Part shown: piece after piece, positions 2,388-37,807 of the stretch
Position numbering within the stretch: position 1 is the first letter of the stretch
Layout of the letters: each line of letters starts with the position of its first letter
Assembly: GCF_006345805.1 (NCBI RefSeq)
Contig: NC_043007.1
Span: forward strand, 39,122,001-39,186,000
Direction of reading: 5' to 3'
DNA: 64,000 nucleotides
Source: Octopus sinensis
Lineage: Eukaryota
Position numbers and translations under genes: made by a program
The notes under the pieces: generated by a model
Database searches by the model: none
What the model was told of the DNA's origin: nothing
What the model saw: only the letters and a program-made list of their open reading frames with translations

Positions 2388-2614
2388 GAAATATTAAAAT
2401 AACTAAGTCTCTCTAAAAGAGAACAGCGGCAGCGTTCCCGGAAAATAATAGTTATCGCCATACTAATATGGCATTCTTATAAAAATAAGAAAAAAAGCTG
2501 TCCGCTTATTAGCTCCATGAGGCCATCGCCTTAAGTTAGCTATTTGATACACAAACTGTATCCATATAACCTTCGAACAAGGGAGGTCAGTCGCTCCACA
2601 CTACTTGACCGGCA

Positions 2615-2656
2615 GCTACAGACGCGTTTCGGGGTATTGCCCCTTTTCAATGCAGC
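2615..2656 (-). ncRNA. Minimal type I hammerhead ribozyme motif, U3-A8 variant
   Basis: Reverse complement of 3001-3042. Confidence 0.8.
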
Positions 2657-3000
2657 GTAGCCAGCCAGTAGGTGTCGCTTCCGACAATCTCTCTTCGATG
2701 GTTTTATTTACCTAGTTTCGGTGGAATACATCCACTTGTTTTCAATAATAGAAATATTAAAATAACTAAGTCTCTCTAAAAGAGAACAGCGGCAGCGTTC
2801 CCGGAAAATAATAGTTATCGCCATACTAATATGGCATTCTTATAAAAATAAGAAAAAAAGCTGTCCGCTTATTAGCTCCATGAGGCCATCGCCTTAAGTT
2901 AGCTATTTGATACACAAACTGTATCCATATAACCTTCGAAACTAGGTAAATAAAACCATCGAAGAGAGATTGTCGGAAGCGACACCTACTGGCTGGCTAC

Positions 3001-3042
3001 GCTGCATTGAAAAGGGGCAATACCCCGAAACGCGTCTGTAGC
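3001..3042 (+). ncRNA. Minimal type I hammerhead ribozyme motif, U3-A8 variant
   Basis: GCUGCA-UUGAAAA-GGGG caaua CCCC-GAA-ACGCGU-C-UGUAGC: stem I 6 bp, stem II 4 bp, palindromic stem III, GUC site. Confidence 0.8.
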
Positions 3043-3326
3043 TGCCGGTCAAGTAGTGTGGAGCGACTGACCTCCCTTGTTCGAAGGTTATATGGATACA
3101 GTTTGTGTATCAAATAGCTAACTTAAGGCGATGGCCTCATGGAGCTAATAAGCGGACAGCTTTTTTTCTTATTTTTATAAGAATGCCATATTAGTATGGC
3201 GATAACTATTATATATATATATATATATATATATGAATAAATAAAAAAAATTCACCCATCGAAATATATATATATATATACATACATACATACGTACATA
3301 CATACGTGCATACATACATACATACA

Positions 3327-4583: not shown

Positions 4584-5500
4584 AAGGCGGCGAGCTGGCA
4601 GAATCGTTAGCACGCCAGACGAGATGCTTATCGATATTTCGTATGCCGTTACGTTCTGAGTTCAAATTCCGCCGAGGTCGACTTTGCCGTTCGTCCTTTC
4701 GGGGTCGATTAAATAAGTACCAGGAACGCACTGGGGTCGATATAATCGATTTAATCCGTTTGTCTGTCCTTGTTTGTCCTCTCTGTGTTTAGCCCCTTGT
4801 GGGTAGTAAATAAATAGGCATTTTGTTTGCCGCTACGTTCTGAGTTCAAATTTCGCCGAGGTCGACTTTGCCTTTCATCCTTTCGGGGTCGATTAAATAA
4901 GTACCAGTTACGCACTGGGGTCGATATAATCGATTTAATCCGTTTGTCTGTCCTTGTTTGTCCTCTCTGTGTTTAGCCCCTTGTGGGTAGTAAAGAAATA
5001 GGCATTTTGTTTGCCGCTACGTTCTGAGTTCAAATTCCGCCGAGGTCGACTTTGCCTTTCATCCTTTCGGGGTCGATTAAATAAGTACCAGTTACGCACT
5101 GGGGTCGATATAATCGATTTAATCCGTTTGTCTGTCCTTGTTTGTCCTCTCTGTGTTTAGCCCCTTGTGGGTAGTAAAGAAATAGGCATTTTGTTTGCCG
5201 CTACGTTCTGAGTTCAAATTTCGCCGAGGTCGACTTTGCCTTTCATCCTTTCGGGGTCGATAAATTAAGTACCAGTTAATCCGTTTGTCTGTTCTTGTTT
5301 AGCCCCTTGTGGGCAATAAAGAAATAAGAAACGTTAGCACGCCTGGTGAAATGCTTCGTGGTATTTCGTCTGTCTTTACGTTCAAATTCCGCCGAGGTCA
5401 ACTTTGCCTTTCATCCTGTTGGGATCGATAAATTAAGTACCACTTGCGACTGGTTCCCTCCCCCAAATTTTCGGGCCTTGTGTCTAGAGTAGAAAAGAAT
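4584..5500 (+). mobile_element. SINE family A (Meta/MESC-like core) with internal body amplified as ~184-bp tandem units
   Basis: Head GGCGGCGAGCTGGCAGAATCG and B box GTTCAAATTCC. Core GCCTTTCATCCTTTCGGGGTCGAT...AAGTACC recurs five times (units near 4652, 4837, 5020, 5204, 5379). Confidence 0.9.
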
Positions 5501-24954: not shown

Positions 24955-25305
24955 TGAAGTAGTGCGTGATACATTATTTGAAAATCGAATAGGACGGTCA
25001 TGTTTGAACCACGAAGAAATTGTTAGATTTATCATGTGTATATATATAAGACTTGCTTTCGGGTCACAAATGGAGATGAACCTTTTTCATTATCACCGGG
25101 GGAAAAGTCTCGAGACCGAACGTAGAGATTACTGATTTGAGGAATCGTATCGAACCTATCAGCTGTTTCCTGTTGATGCAATGACACTATTTGGCGGAGC
25201 TGGGAGTTGTTGGTAGGTATATTCGTCATAGCAGAGACTGATGCAAGTAGCACTTTAGTGCTAACTGAATGGGGATTACTTTAAAGGAATTTCTTTCTCT
25301 TTATA

Positions 25306-26632: not shown

Positions 26633-27004
26633 GTCACAAAAATACGTCACGATGTGTTACCACTACTGTATATAACTCACTTTGATATTTATCATTGTTT
26701 GATTTCACTTTTTCAATATCATCGCAAGTGGACGCTGGAAAAAGTATAAGTATTTGTGAAGGAAATCTAATTCTCGCCGACAACTATGATTGTCACACGC
26801 TGACGAGAGGTCAATACCTCGAAACTCGAGTCCGTGTGTATCATAAGTTGAAGACGGGAAGGATGACTTCCCTTTGCAAATACTGACAGGACACAGAAAG
26901 TGTGTCTATGGCCAGCTGGAGGAGTGTGTCCTCCTGGGGCTAAAAACTACAGTAGCATCCACCCTTAGGGGTTAGCCATATTGAAATGGCAAAAATACTC
27001 ACGA

Positions 27005-27091: not shown

Positions 27092-27194
27092 ATACGTTTA
27101 ATTATTTGTTGGGCAAGATTTTGGCTAACTGGCATATGACCATTCCGAAATATAACAATATATATATATCTATATATATATATATATATATATA

Positions 27195-27458
27195 GGATAA
27201 ATGTTTTATACATAAACGTGAAATACAGGAAGGGACAAACACGGAACACAGACAAATCATTCGAAGCCTTCAATCTTCAGTCAGACACCGAATCATCATA
27301 GCAAATTTCGGCTGTTCAATTCTGATATTTTCTCCAACTCGGCCAGCCCCAAGAAAAAAAACTAAGCTGTAAGCATTAGATTTCTTGGTAGAAGACAGGA
27401 ATGTGAACGCACGAGACGGATGTAAATACGAGAGACGAAAACGAAATTGAAAACAGTA
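27195..27458 (-). mobile_element. Repeat family P (reversed-order hammerhead strands), diverged copy in (TA)n
   Basis: Homologous to 37500-37748 and flanked by (TA)n. Confidence 0.75.
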
Positions 27459-32246: not shown

Positions 32247-32329
<83 letters not shown>

Positions 32330-32330
<1 letters not shown>

Positions 32331-32485
32331 GAATACAAATGGGAGAAGAACGCAAAACATCCGGACAACTAGATGATACAAAAAGAGACAACAAAACATC
32401 CAGATAGACGATACAAAAAAACACGGACGGGTCATTCGAAGCCTTTTATCTTCAGTCAAGAACCGGATCATCCTCGCAATTTCGG
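32330..32485 (-). mobile_element. Repeat family P, truncated copy in (TA)n
   Basis: Minus strand CCGAAAUUGCGAGGAUGAUCCGGUUCUUGACUGAAGA...GGCUUCGAAUG. Confidence 0.75.
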
Positions 32486-36550: not shown

Positions 36551-36725
36551 AAACGTATACTGAGTACAGAAAGAAACGGAAAACAAAAACAGAAGGTCCC
36601 TAATTCTTCATCAGTTATCAACCAGATGGTATTACTCAGTATTGCACCACCTGGTTGATAACTGACGAAGAATTAGGGGCCTTCTGTTTTTGTTTTCCGT
36701 CTGTTTCTGCACCCAATATACGTTT
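36551..36725. repeat. ~80-bp-arm inverted repeat at the end of the family P array
   Basis: AAACGTATA...TTATCAACCAGATGGT pairs with ACCACCTGGTTGATAA...TATACGTTT, imperfectly. Confidence 0.85.
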
Positions 36726-37748
36726 TCGTTTTCCGTCCTCGTGTTGTATACATTCGAAGCTTTCTTCCAGGGGATCTAATGCGCTTGGCTTAGATTTCCC
36801 TTGGCGGGCTGCCATATCGGAGCAATCTCAAGATTAATCAGCGAAATTGCTAAGATGATCTGGTTCTTGACTGATGACTGAGGGCTTCGAATGTCCCGTC
36901 CTGTGGTTCTTGTGTCGTCTCTGTGGTGTTTCAGTTCTTGTCCATGTCTGTAATTATTTTACTGTTTACCTATATAATCGGCGGCTACGTATCCACAATT
37001 TCCTCTATACGATAAGAGAGAAAGTATATTTTTTCTCTAGCATTGATACGACTCTTAATCTGTCTCTTTCTCTCTCTCTCTCTCTCCTCCCTTATTCCCC
37101 TTCCTTTCTTTCCCTCTCCATCCGTCTTCCCCCCCCTTCTACGTTTCTCTATCTCTCTCACCTCCAGCCACCTCGATCTGTCTCTGTCTTCTCCTCCCTC
37201 GTCCACCTCTCTCTCTTTCATCGTCCTTTCTCCTGTCTTGTTCTCACGTGACCGCTAGCCGTTGTGAGCGCCTCTTTCGTTCCAGCAGTCGCAGAAGCAA
37301 CACGTATTTGTTCGTCTCCCTGCGGCCATTAGGCACAACTTCACAAGCCAGCCCCATACTCACTCGTCCTGTCGAAAGACCCTTGTCCTACGTCCTGTTT
37401 GTTTTTGTTGTTTATTTTTATTTTTACCGTTATTGTTTTTACGTTTTGTATTCTTATTGGTGTCACGTATCTGTATTTTTGTTCGTGTATCGTTCGTTCG
37501 TTTTTTCGTGTTCCTCGTGTTGTATACATTCGAAGCTTTCTTCCAGGGGATCTAATGCGCTGGCTTAGATTTCCTTGGCGGGCTGGCCATATCGGAGCAA
37601 TCTTCAAGATTAATCAGCCGAAATTGCTAAGATGATCTGGTTCTTGACTGATGACTGAGGGCTTCGAATGTCCCGTCCTGTGGTTCTTGTGTCGTCTCTG
37701 TGGTGTTTCATGTTCTTGTCCATGTCTGTAATTATTTTACTGTTTACC
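36724..37748 (+). mobile_element. Repeat family P: non-coding 777-bp unit in partial tandem, bounded by (TA)n
   Basis: 36730-36970 is repeated at about 37505-37748. CTGATGA at 36871 and 37648. Confidence 0.85.
37527..37670 (+). ncRNA. Candidate permuted (reverse strand order) hammerhead ribozyme domain
   Basis: AGCAAU-C-(U)UCAAGA, then CAGCC-GAA-AUUGCU, then UCUUGA-CUGAUGA, enclosed by CAUUCGAAGC/GCUUCGAAUG. Confidence 0.55.

Positions 37749-37807
<59 letters not shown>

What the first reader, a model, noticed from the sequence alone, without database searches (positions are those of the whole stretch)
27258..27403. Diverged family P copy shows compensatory indels supporting the reversed-order hammerhead
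Seen on the minus strand: GGCUG..AGAAAAU-A-UCAGA..CAGCC-GAA-AUUUGCU..UCUGA-CUGAAGA. Relative to the 36.8-kb copy, both strands of stem I lose one base (UCAGA/UCUGA versus UCAAGA/UCUUGA). Both strands of stem III gain one (AAAU/AUUU, with one further mismatch). H17 changes C to A and N7 changes U to A, both positions known to be permissive in HHRs. Inference: paired changes suggest the pairing was under selection.
Basis: partly seen in the sequence, partly recalled or inferred. Interest (0 to 1): 0.8.

Follow-up and report, generated by a model that had tools for sequence, protein, structure and literature searches.

The report
Rearranged, split hammerhead ribozyme in retroelements
A jumping repeat present in hundreds of copies in this animal genome carries every conserved piece of a hammerhead self-cutting RNA in a rearranged order, with the catalytic strand split by two extra helices; it is predicted to cut its own RNA and is likely the ribozyme reported missing from Naiad Penelope-like retrotransposons.

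Summary
The parse is right. The copy at 27258-27403 (minus) belongs to a young, non-coding, ~715-nt tandem retroelement family (B; 772 exact 3'-tag matches) inserted in (TA)n. All hammerhead core nucleotides are present, in the non-circular order S-G-C described in 2023 from metatranscriptomes. The difference: the 5' strand of stem II lies upstream, so CUGAnGA and G10.1 are separated by two helices, an arrangement the 2023 paper assumed does not occur. The stem III paired insertion is fixed (82 of 88 copies). The stem I 'deletions' are really compensatory substitutions, and the extra mismatch is private to this copy. Ten families in the genome keep stems I, II, III and a fourth helix with different letters; a descriptor gives 0 hits in 7.7 Mb of shuffles. 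5' ends of truncated copies pile up just 3' of the predicted cut (18 vs 1; 9 vs 0), which is indirect evidence of cleavage. The same architecture ends published Naiad retrotransposons of octopus, squid, coral and jellyfish (8 of 51 ends, by eye), which were reported to lack canonical hammerheads. Cleavage itself, monomer versus dimer folding and the mobilising enzyme are untested.

The parts
27189..27458 (-). Single 5'-truncated copy of family B non-coding retroelement, both ends in (TA)n; 3' end at the family's fixed TATA end
27389..27403 (-). P0, 5' strand (two segments, 27399-27403 and 27389-27396); closes the domain
   Evidence: (RNAfold); analogous helix in A, C, D, E, H
27349..27388 (-). 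P5 hairpin inserted between P0 and G10.1
   Evidence: stem letters differ but pair in A, B, C, D, E
27344..27348 (-). Stem II 5' strand (G10.1 = 27348), detached from CUGAnGA
   Evidence: covaries with the 3' strand in 6 distinct types
27336..27343 (-). P4 5' strand (helix tying the outer ends of stems I and II)
27333..27335 (-). Hinge between P4 and stem III, 5' side (k-turn-like in A/B/C/G/N, not conserved in F/D/E/H)
   Evidence: k-turn consensus recalled
27327..27332 (-). Stem III 16.x strand (U16.1 = 27327); holds the family's inserted A; private C-to-A change at 27331
27325..27326 (-). H17 = A at 27326; predicted cut between 27326 and 27325 (after AUA)
   Evidence: analogy to hammerhead core; 5'-end pile-up
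27321..27325 (-). Stem I 1.x strand
27310..27314 (-). Stem II 3' strand (C11.1 = 27310), joined to stem I by a 6-nt linker (27315-27320)
27301..27309 (-). G12-A13-A14 (27309-27307) and stem III 15.x strand with the family's inserted U
27287..27300 (-). Hinge 3' side (27295-27300) and P4 3' strand (27287-27294)
27274..27285 (-). Stem I 2.x strand (27281-27285) and C3-U4-G5-A6-A7-G8-A9 (27280-27274)
27258..27273 (-). P0 3' strand, starting right after A9
36725..37755 (+). Family A tandem pair, 777-nt spacing, cores at 36871 and 37648; each has private 1-nt indels
32320..32485 (-). Family C fragment whose 5' end lies 13 nt 3' of the predicted cut (lower bound of the range approximate)

Best explanation
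This is a hammerhead core in the non-circular S-G-C order with its CUGAnGA strand detached from stem II, carried by a non-coding tandem retroelement, and it is predicted to cut the element's RNA after AUA (27326/27325). Shown: strand order P0-P5-IIa-P4a-IIIa-H17-Ia-IIb-GAA-IIIb-P4b-Ib-CUGAnGA-P0; covariation of stems I, II, III and P4; fixed 3' ends at TATA-(TA)n; variable 5' ends with a step at the predicted cut; head-to-tail arrays; the same architecture at 3' ends of Naiad Penelope-like elements (PLEs). Inferred: P0 and P5 plug into the A9/G10.1 step as a multi-helix junction that also holds the RNA's entry and exit. Cleavage of tandem transcripts would give unit-length RNAs starting at position 1.1. 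A PLE reverse transcriptase/endonuclease would prime at the UAUA stretch on nicked (TA)n DNA and copy towards the ribozyme. It would run off cleaved RNA at the cut (short inserts), or go on through ligated circles or uncleaved multimers (1-3-unit arrays). The ribozyme likely descends from a Naiad 3' end; the enzyme now in use may be a Naiad or the intact (TA)n-ending Neptune-type PLEs.
For: Null model: 0 full hits in 7.68 Mb. Alignment of 6 copies: 93.8% of cells paired, 9 of 24 pairs with changes on both sides, 0 of 500 shuffles reach it, slid controls 20-46%. Ten families, strands anchored on core nucleotides: stem I 50/50, stem II with the upstream strand 50/50, stem III 48/50 pairs; non-cognate means 2.6-3.0 of 5; G10.1-C11.1 and A15.1-U16.1 invariant; H17 never G. 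Prediction noted before looking for family C: hinge and stem III strand met, P4 7 of 8 pairs with 2 letters other than predicted. 5' ends in sets chosen only by a 3' tag: A 18 of 64 ends at 0..+13 vs 1 at -14..-1 (p 4e-5; next best 14-nt window 4); B 9 of 66 at 0..+24 vs 0 at -25..-1 (p 0.002). 3' ends at TATA-(TA)n in 66 of 74 A and 67 of 75 B. Validated SGC-3 has the same four helices and a 1-nt insert at A9/G10.1 (PMC10085705). Naiad 3' motif: 167 exact 21-mer matches in G000, lying downstream and in sense of an RT frame in 9 of 30 loci.
Against: No cleavage assay. Representatives G and H were found by the descriptor and the stem II 5' strands were located by eye, so part of the perfect pairing is by selection; families are related, so permutation values overstate independence. 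The B pile-up is broad and weaker (14-nt window 4 vs 0, p 0.06; another 25-nt window holds 7), and 7 of the 18 A ends sit on AT microhomology at +5/+7. Nested minimum-energy folds of B do not form stem III or P4. Closing P4 onto stem III on both strands strains a monomer, since stems II and III stack coaxially (PMC10085705 Discussion). The 741-nt unit is not a self-paired rod (z +0.85), unlike described retrozyme circles. No autonomous element sharing the A/B/C 3' end was found, and Naiad copies examined in G000 are decayed.
Confidence: 0.72

Rival explanations
1. Same ribozyme, but it works only as a domain-swapped dimer: the loop of one copy (H17, Ia, IIb, GAA) docks onto the IIa and Ib-CUGAnGA strands of a second copy, so cutting needs tandem transcripts or two RNAs. 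This is a sub-case of the best explanation; the value given is the share of 'dimer' within it.
For: P4 plus stem III forms a nearly continuous rod (in the coral Naiad 10 + 12 bp with a 0/7-nt bulge, by eye) that must fold back about 180 degrees in a monomer. The hinge is not conserved (k-turn-like, loop-E-like or plain bulge). PLE hammerheads are proposed to act as dimers (PMC4209133 passages). 18 of 51 B and 10 of 49 A regions hold 2-3 copies.
Against: SGC-3 cleaves with a 2-nt link between stem III and P4. The hinge in A/B/C/G/N matches a recalled k-turn consensus that could supply the bend. Stem III is long and not palindromic in A-E.
Confidence: 0.4
2. The fold is a conserved but non-catalytic (or no longer catalytic) template-recognition element for the PLE protein, and the 5'-end pile-up comes from reverse-transcriptase stalling and AT microhomology.
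For: No direct cleavage evidence; many arrays read through the site; AT microhomology at +5/+7 in A; published SGC ribozymes are slow (0.007-0.19 per min).
Against: All catalytic core nucleotides and H17 not G are kept across 10 families and four animal lineages while stem letters turn over. The pile-up stops sharply at position 0, and other AT motifs upstream (-14, -52, -82) hold 0, 1 and 3 ends.
Confidence: 0.13
3. An ordinary type-SGC hammerhead with an intact block C, in which the GGCU found 5 nt after A9 is the 5' strand of stem II.
For: 4 contiguous pairs are possible at offset 5 in A, B and C, and at offset 1 in E and H.
Against: The offset differs between families and G has none. The downstream bases are taken by P0. 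The upstream strand pairs 50/50, covaries, and sits directly 5' of P4a as in SGC-3.
Confidence: 0.06
4. Chance pattern or long-read assembly artefact.
For: Homopolymer indels are common in this assembly (both window A copies carry private ones).
Confidence: 0.01

Closest known systems
Type-SGC (HRIMA-1) non-circularly permuted hammerhead, Eckert et al. 2023 (PMC10085705; read main-text parts 2-6 of 8, one supplement search, supplement part 2)
   Same: Block order S, G, C; short linker joining stem I to stem II; extra helix tying the other ends of stems I and II; full core.
   Different: Here the stem II 5' strand and P4a come first, so block C is split between A9 and G10.1 by P0 and P5, and P4 is joined to stem III on both strands. 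The paper assumes no insertion over 1-2 nt there, and found SGC only in metatranscriptomes, none in genomes of known organisms.
Naiad Penelope-like elements, Craig et al. 2021 (PMC8557442; passages, supplement part 1, and the last 330-520 nt of 51 of 54 consensus sequences)
   Same: (TA)n targeting, tandem and inverted insertions, 5' truncation. The same split architecture at the 3' end of 8 consensus sequences (2 octopus, squid, 3 coral, hydrozoan, box jellyfish; a ctenophore partly), by eye.
   Different: This element has no ORF. The paper reports Naiads as lacking canonical hammerheads, with some 'core' or 'half-core' matches. No sequence similarity beyond the core between families A-C and the octopus Naiad was found.
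Metazoan non-LTR retrozymes, Cervera and de la Pena 2020 (PMC7229834, passages); Li et al. 2026 (10.64898/2026.07.22.740005, parts 1-2 and passages)
   Same: Non-coding head-to-tail repeats with one hammerhead per unit, proposed to be mobilised by PLEs through circular RNA.
   Different: Those carry type I hammerheads and are mostly 150-450 nt and highly self-paired; these units are about 700-880 nt, pyrimidine-rich and weakly folded, with a permuted ribozyme.
Minimal type I hammerheads of canonical PLEs, Cervera and de la Pena 2014 (PMC4209133, passages)
   Same: Hammerhead in the terminal repeat of a PLE; an unpaired nucleotide tolerated at the 5' end of stem II; possible dimer action.
   Different: Circularly permuted type I with little or no stem III, against a pseudoknotted form with a 5-7-bp stem III here.

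Membership tests
Hammerhead ribozyme | C3-U4-G5-A6-N7-G8-A9 directly after stem I | tested here: met
   (87 of 88 B copies)
Hammerhead ribozyme | G12-A13-A14, A15.1-U16.1, G10.1-C11.1, H17 not G | tested here: met
   10 of 10 family representatives
Hammerhead ribozyme | Stems I, II, III with covariation | tested here: met
Hammerhead ribozyme | Site-specific self-cleavage 3' of H17 | not testable with these tools
   only indirect: 5'-end step at the site
Hammerhead types I-III (Rfam models) | Circular order C-G-S without pseudoknots | tested here: not met
   order is S-G-C; no Rfam hammerhead match at this locus among the 150 of 164 rows shown
Type-SGC hammerhead | Block order S, G, C with short stem I-stem II linker | tested here: met
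   linker 1-6 nt
Type-SGC hammerhead | Helix tying the outer ends of stems I and II | tested here: met
   P4, 87.5% of cells paired, 2 pairs with double changes
Type-SGC hammerhead | Block C contiguous (at most 1-2 nt between A9 and stem II) | tested here: not met
   stem II partner is upstream and covaries; downstream alternative inconsistent
Non-LTR retrozyme | Non-coding tandem units, one hammerhead each | tested here: met
Non-LTR retrozyme | Type I hammerhead | tested here: not met
Non-LTR retrozyme | Expressed as highly self-paired circular RNA | tested here: inconclusive
   unit folds no better than shuffles; expression and circularity could not be examined
Naiad PLE (autonomous) | ORF with N-terminal GIY-YIG and C-terminal RT | tested here: not met
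   units are about 700-880 nt without such an ORF
Naiad-derived non-autonomous element | (TA)n targeting and 3' ribozyme architecture shared with Naiads | tested here: met
Naiad-derived non-autonomous element | An intact Naiad in the genome sharing its 3' end | tested here: inconclusive
   none among 134 RT matches (longest open frame 320 aa) or 20 GIY-YIG regions fetched; searches score only top candidates

The most novel reading that the evidence does not exclude
A new natural hammerhead topology: a non-circularly permuted core whose catalytic strand is opened at A9/G10.1 into a multi-helix junction and whose three stems are closed into a cage by a fourth helix, possibly active only as a domain-swapped dimer. 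It is an ancient, clade-wide feature of Naiad retrotransposons (split form in cephalopods, cnidarians and a ctenophore; intact-C type CSG in nematodes) that all standard hammerhead descriptors miss, and it drives a large class of overlooked non-coding retroelements in octopus.
Probability: 0.6. Interest if true: 0.9.

Novelty: new variant of a known kind. Interest (0 to 1): 0.84.

Why it matters
Non-circular hammerhead permutations were known only from metatranscriptome and metagenome contigs (plus one weak bacterial candidate), and the block containing CUGAnGA was assumed indivisible. This would place them in animal genomes at thousands of copies and show that block can be split. It offers a direct answer to why Naiad PLEs were reported to 'lack' hammerheads, and turns the 'half-core' notes of that paper into testable ribozymes. 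The step in 5' ends is a genomic footprint of where PLE-type RNA templates are cut. For engineering, an opening at A9/G10.1 would be a new place to insert domains into a hammerhead.

Tried and rejected
Rfam scan: no hammerhead model hits this locus among the rows shown, as expected for a permuted form. RNA evidence: no RNA holder listed; the 4 runs laid were contigs only and cannot show ends or expression. Metagenome pattern scan: 1 hit, which looks like a coding sequence without the stems, taken as chance; viral contigs 0; both patterns were close to families A-C, so they say little about distant forms. Earlier scan findings: nothing. Pfam: blank for the 141- and 107-aa RT fragments; RVT_1 below its curated cut-off for longer frames (E 1e-4 and 2e-3). 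A C-like copy near a decayed RT (L412/L413) proved a separate insertion. Intact young PLEs (781-aa frames) gave no split-type hit. A universal k-turn hinge was rejected: F has a 4-nt bulge, D/E a loop-E-like loop, H neither. The pile-up of copies starting at CGAAA was discarded as an effect of the search pattern; the unbiased test is. One search printed nothing. In one search the count at the last alignment position is an edge artefact and was dropped. In one search, internal deletions (6 A, 5 B), inversions (2, 2), duplicates and loci cut at the edge were dropped, and the last 8 listed A arrays were not fetched.

Full report
Observation. BLAST in the window finds relatives at 36.8 and 37.6 kb (plus) and a fragment at 32.4 kb (minus). 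The genome G000 (2.72 Gb) holds many copies: exact 3' tags match 772 times for this family (B) and 1260 times for the 36.8-kb family (A), controls 0. The host is inferred to be an octopus, from an exact match to a published octopus retrotransposon end.

Among 88 distinct B copies spanning the core, 82 have both longer stem III strands and 4 have one only; among 58 A copies none has a long strand. The paired A:U insertion is therefore fixed, and contigs of 4 public runs list no indel in this stretch. The stem I 'loss' is not an indel: anchor-to-anchor lengths are equal and MAFFT aligns it ungapped, which turns it into two double substitutions, stronger evidence than an indel. The extra mismatch at 27331 occurs in 0 of 88 other copies and is outvoted by over 99.8% of depth in X15 and X18. 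B is young: 19 differences over 62 copies in 73 core positions.

Anatomy. In 5' to 3' order: P0 5' strand, P5 hairpin, stem II 5' strand (G10.1), P4a, hinge, stem III strand, H17, stem I strand, short linker, stem II 3' strand, GAA, stem III strand, hinge, P4b, stem I strand, CUGAnGA, P0 3' strand. I noted a prediction for family C before seeing full copies: the hinge and stem III strand were met, and P4 pairs 7 of 8 with two letters other than predicted. A pattern leaving stem II open gave 159 matches against 1 in the control and exposed diverged families, which were then collected. On a 6-sequence alignment, 93.8% of cells pair, 9 of 24 pairs change on both sides, 0 of 500 shuffles reach this on four of five measures (further pair types: 361 of 500), and slid structures pair 20-46%. 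Over 10 family representatives, with strands anchored on core nucleotides, stems I, II and III pair 50/50, 50/50 and 48/50, against non-cognate means of 2.8, 3.0 and 2.6 of 5; permuting partners among distinct types reaches the observed value in 1 of 5040, 1 of 720 and 2 of 362880 cases. Caveats: the families are related, G and H were found by a descriptor that demands pairing, and I located the stem II 5' strands by eye. The descriptor itself gives 2 hits in the window and 0 in 7.68 Mb of shuffles.

The split. Stem II has its partner upstream: GGCUG/CAGCC (A, B, C, F), GGCCG/CGGCC (G), GAGCG/CGCUC and GAACG/CGUUC (D), GAAGG/CCUUC (E, H), GACAC/GUGUC (Naiad). A downstream partner is possible in some families but at inconsistent offsets, and not at all in G. 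The bases after A9 instead pair with P0, starting 0-2 nt after A9, and P5 ends 1-2 nt before G10.1. So the A9/G10.1 step is opened into a junction with two helices. The hinge between P4 and stem III varies: k-turn-like in A, B, C, G and Naiad, loop-E-like in D and E (both consensus motifs recalled), a plain bulge in F.

The element. Units are about 780 (A), 715 (B), 760 (C) and 855-880 nt (D, E), head to tail, pyrimidine-rich, without a long ORF. 18 of 51 B and 10 of 49 A regions hold 2-3 copies. 3' ends fall at a fixed TATA followed by (TA)n in 66 of 74 A and 67 of 75 B cases; most others continue into a next unit. For 5' ends I used loci picked only by a tag 3' of the ribozyme (81 B and 79 A loci from the first 100 listed places each). 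In A, 18 of 64 ends lie 0 to 13 nt 3' of the predicted cut and 1 in the 14 nt before it (p 4e-5); no other 14-nt window holds more than 4. In B, 9 of 66 lie within 24 nt 3' of it and 0 in the 25 nt before (p 0.002), though the 14-nt test is not significant (4 vs 0) and another 25-nt window holds 7. AT microhomology at +5/+7 accounts for 7 of the 18 A ends, but upstream AT motifs show no such pile. The simplest reading (inference) is reverse transcription running off RNA whose 5' end was made by the ribozyme, while longer arrays come from ligated or uncleaved templates. The unit does not fold better than shuffles (z +0.85), so a viroid-like rod is not supported.

Comparison with what is known. 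Eckert et al. 2023 (PMC10085705) describe type-SGC hammerheads with this block order, a short stem I-stem II linker and an extra helix, and validate them in vitro. They assume CUGAnGA and its adjacent stem strands cannot be interrupted, and report no SGC example in genomes of known organisms; 'octopus' occurs 0 times in text and supplement. Their SGC-3 has the same four helices with stem II and P4a at the 3' end and one U after A9 (read from the oligos). Craig et al. 2021 (PMC8557442) state that Naiad PLEs target (TA)n, lack canonical hammerheads, and in eight cases have half cores 35-50 nt apart. Reading the last 330-520 nt of 51 of their 54 Naiad consensus sequences by eye, I find the split form in 8 (two Octopus, Euprymna with one stem II mismatch, three Acropora, Clytia Naiad-3, Morbakka Naiad-2), partly in Beroe (stem I only 2 bp), and an intact-block type-CSG form in 6 nematode Naiads. 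The other 36 show other motifs, unresolved cores, or nothing in the part seen. In Acropora P0, P5 and stem II abut with no linker. In G000 the octopus Naiad motif occurs 167 times as an exact 21-mer and lies downstream and in sense of an RT frame in 9 of 30 loci with 1.5-kb flanks (RVT_1 E 1e-4, below cut-off).

Mobiliser. Unresolved. Naiad copies examined here are decayed, in line with Craig et al. [quoted passage not shown] Retrozyme papers propose PLE mobilisation of hammerhead tandem repeats, but for type I ribozymes only.

Geometry. Stems II and III stack coaxially, so tying the outer end of stem III back to the outer ends of stems I and II through P4 on both strands needs a sharp fold-back. 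This is plausible with a k-turn-like hinge in A-C but hard for the long coral rod; a domain-swapped dimer relaxes it (inference; no modelling done). I put dimer dependence at about 0.4.

Novelty. Searches of the held library: 'non-circular permutations'+hammerhead, hammerhead ribozyme+octopus, retrozyme+hammerhead+mollus, type-SGC (one paper), Naiad+ribozyme, hammerhead+permuted+Penelope-like+pseudoknot, extra nucleotide terms, Penelope-like+novel topology (none), four-way junction terms. None of the listings or texts read describes a split block C or permuted hammerheads in PLEs; subscription journals are not covered. Verdict: works like a hammerhead, is not types I-III, and fails one defining feature of type SGC; a new variant of a known kind. 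Probability that it is or recently was a self-cleaving hammerhead about 0.85; whole model 0.72; interest 0.84.

Noticed in passing
window 25038-25291 (+): RNase MRP RNA gene, Rfam RF00030, 67 bits, over the gathering score.
   Followed up: no
window 26794-26838 (+): Conventional type I hammerhead-like motif, Rfam RF00163 32.2 bits (cut-off 34), E 4e-4, about 400 nt from the finding.
   Followed up: no
window 36592-36690: Long inverted repeat with CUGANGA on both strands just upstream of the family A pair; resembles an inverted PLE end.
   Followed up: no
window 30338 (+): CUGAUGA followed by a short stem and GAAA: minimal hammerhead-like motif.
   Followed up: no
window 2445-2720 and 2937-3212: 276-nt perfect inverted repeat with 216-nt spacer; MITE-like or assembly artefact.
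   Followed up: no
window 4626-5448 and 10 more sites: Abundant SINE-like repeat, in a 184-nt tandem run here.
   Followed up: no
PMC8557442 supplement S5: Naiad-1/2/3_Nbra, Hcon, Hpol, Asuum 3' ends: Six nematode Naiads end in what reads as a type-CSG permuted hammerhead with intact block C; type CSG was known from two metagenome sequences (by eye).
   Followed up: partly
PMC8557442 supplement S5: Movir-1, mussel and clam Naiads; oyster, hemichordate and Clytia Naiad-2 ends: Other conserved structured 3' motifs: twister-like in Movir-1 and several bivalves (recalled consensus), and a second unidentified motif in oysters, hemichordates and Clytia; Naiads may swap ribozyme classes.
   Followed up: no
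L452-L455, L459, L460, L462: Young, near-identical two-ORF PLE with an intact 781-aa RT/GIY-YIG frame and a repeat-rich 3' region; candidate active mobiliser.
   Followed up: partly
L084, L091, L093, L323: Head-to-head inverted partial copies whose breakpoints lie in or near the ribozyme, as in PLE inverted insertions.
   Followed up: no
L086:2009-2145, L094:890-1050, L397, L110, L120: Further ribozyme variants (G, H and others) not sampled beyond one or two copies.
   Followed up: partly
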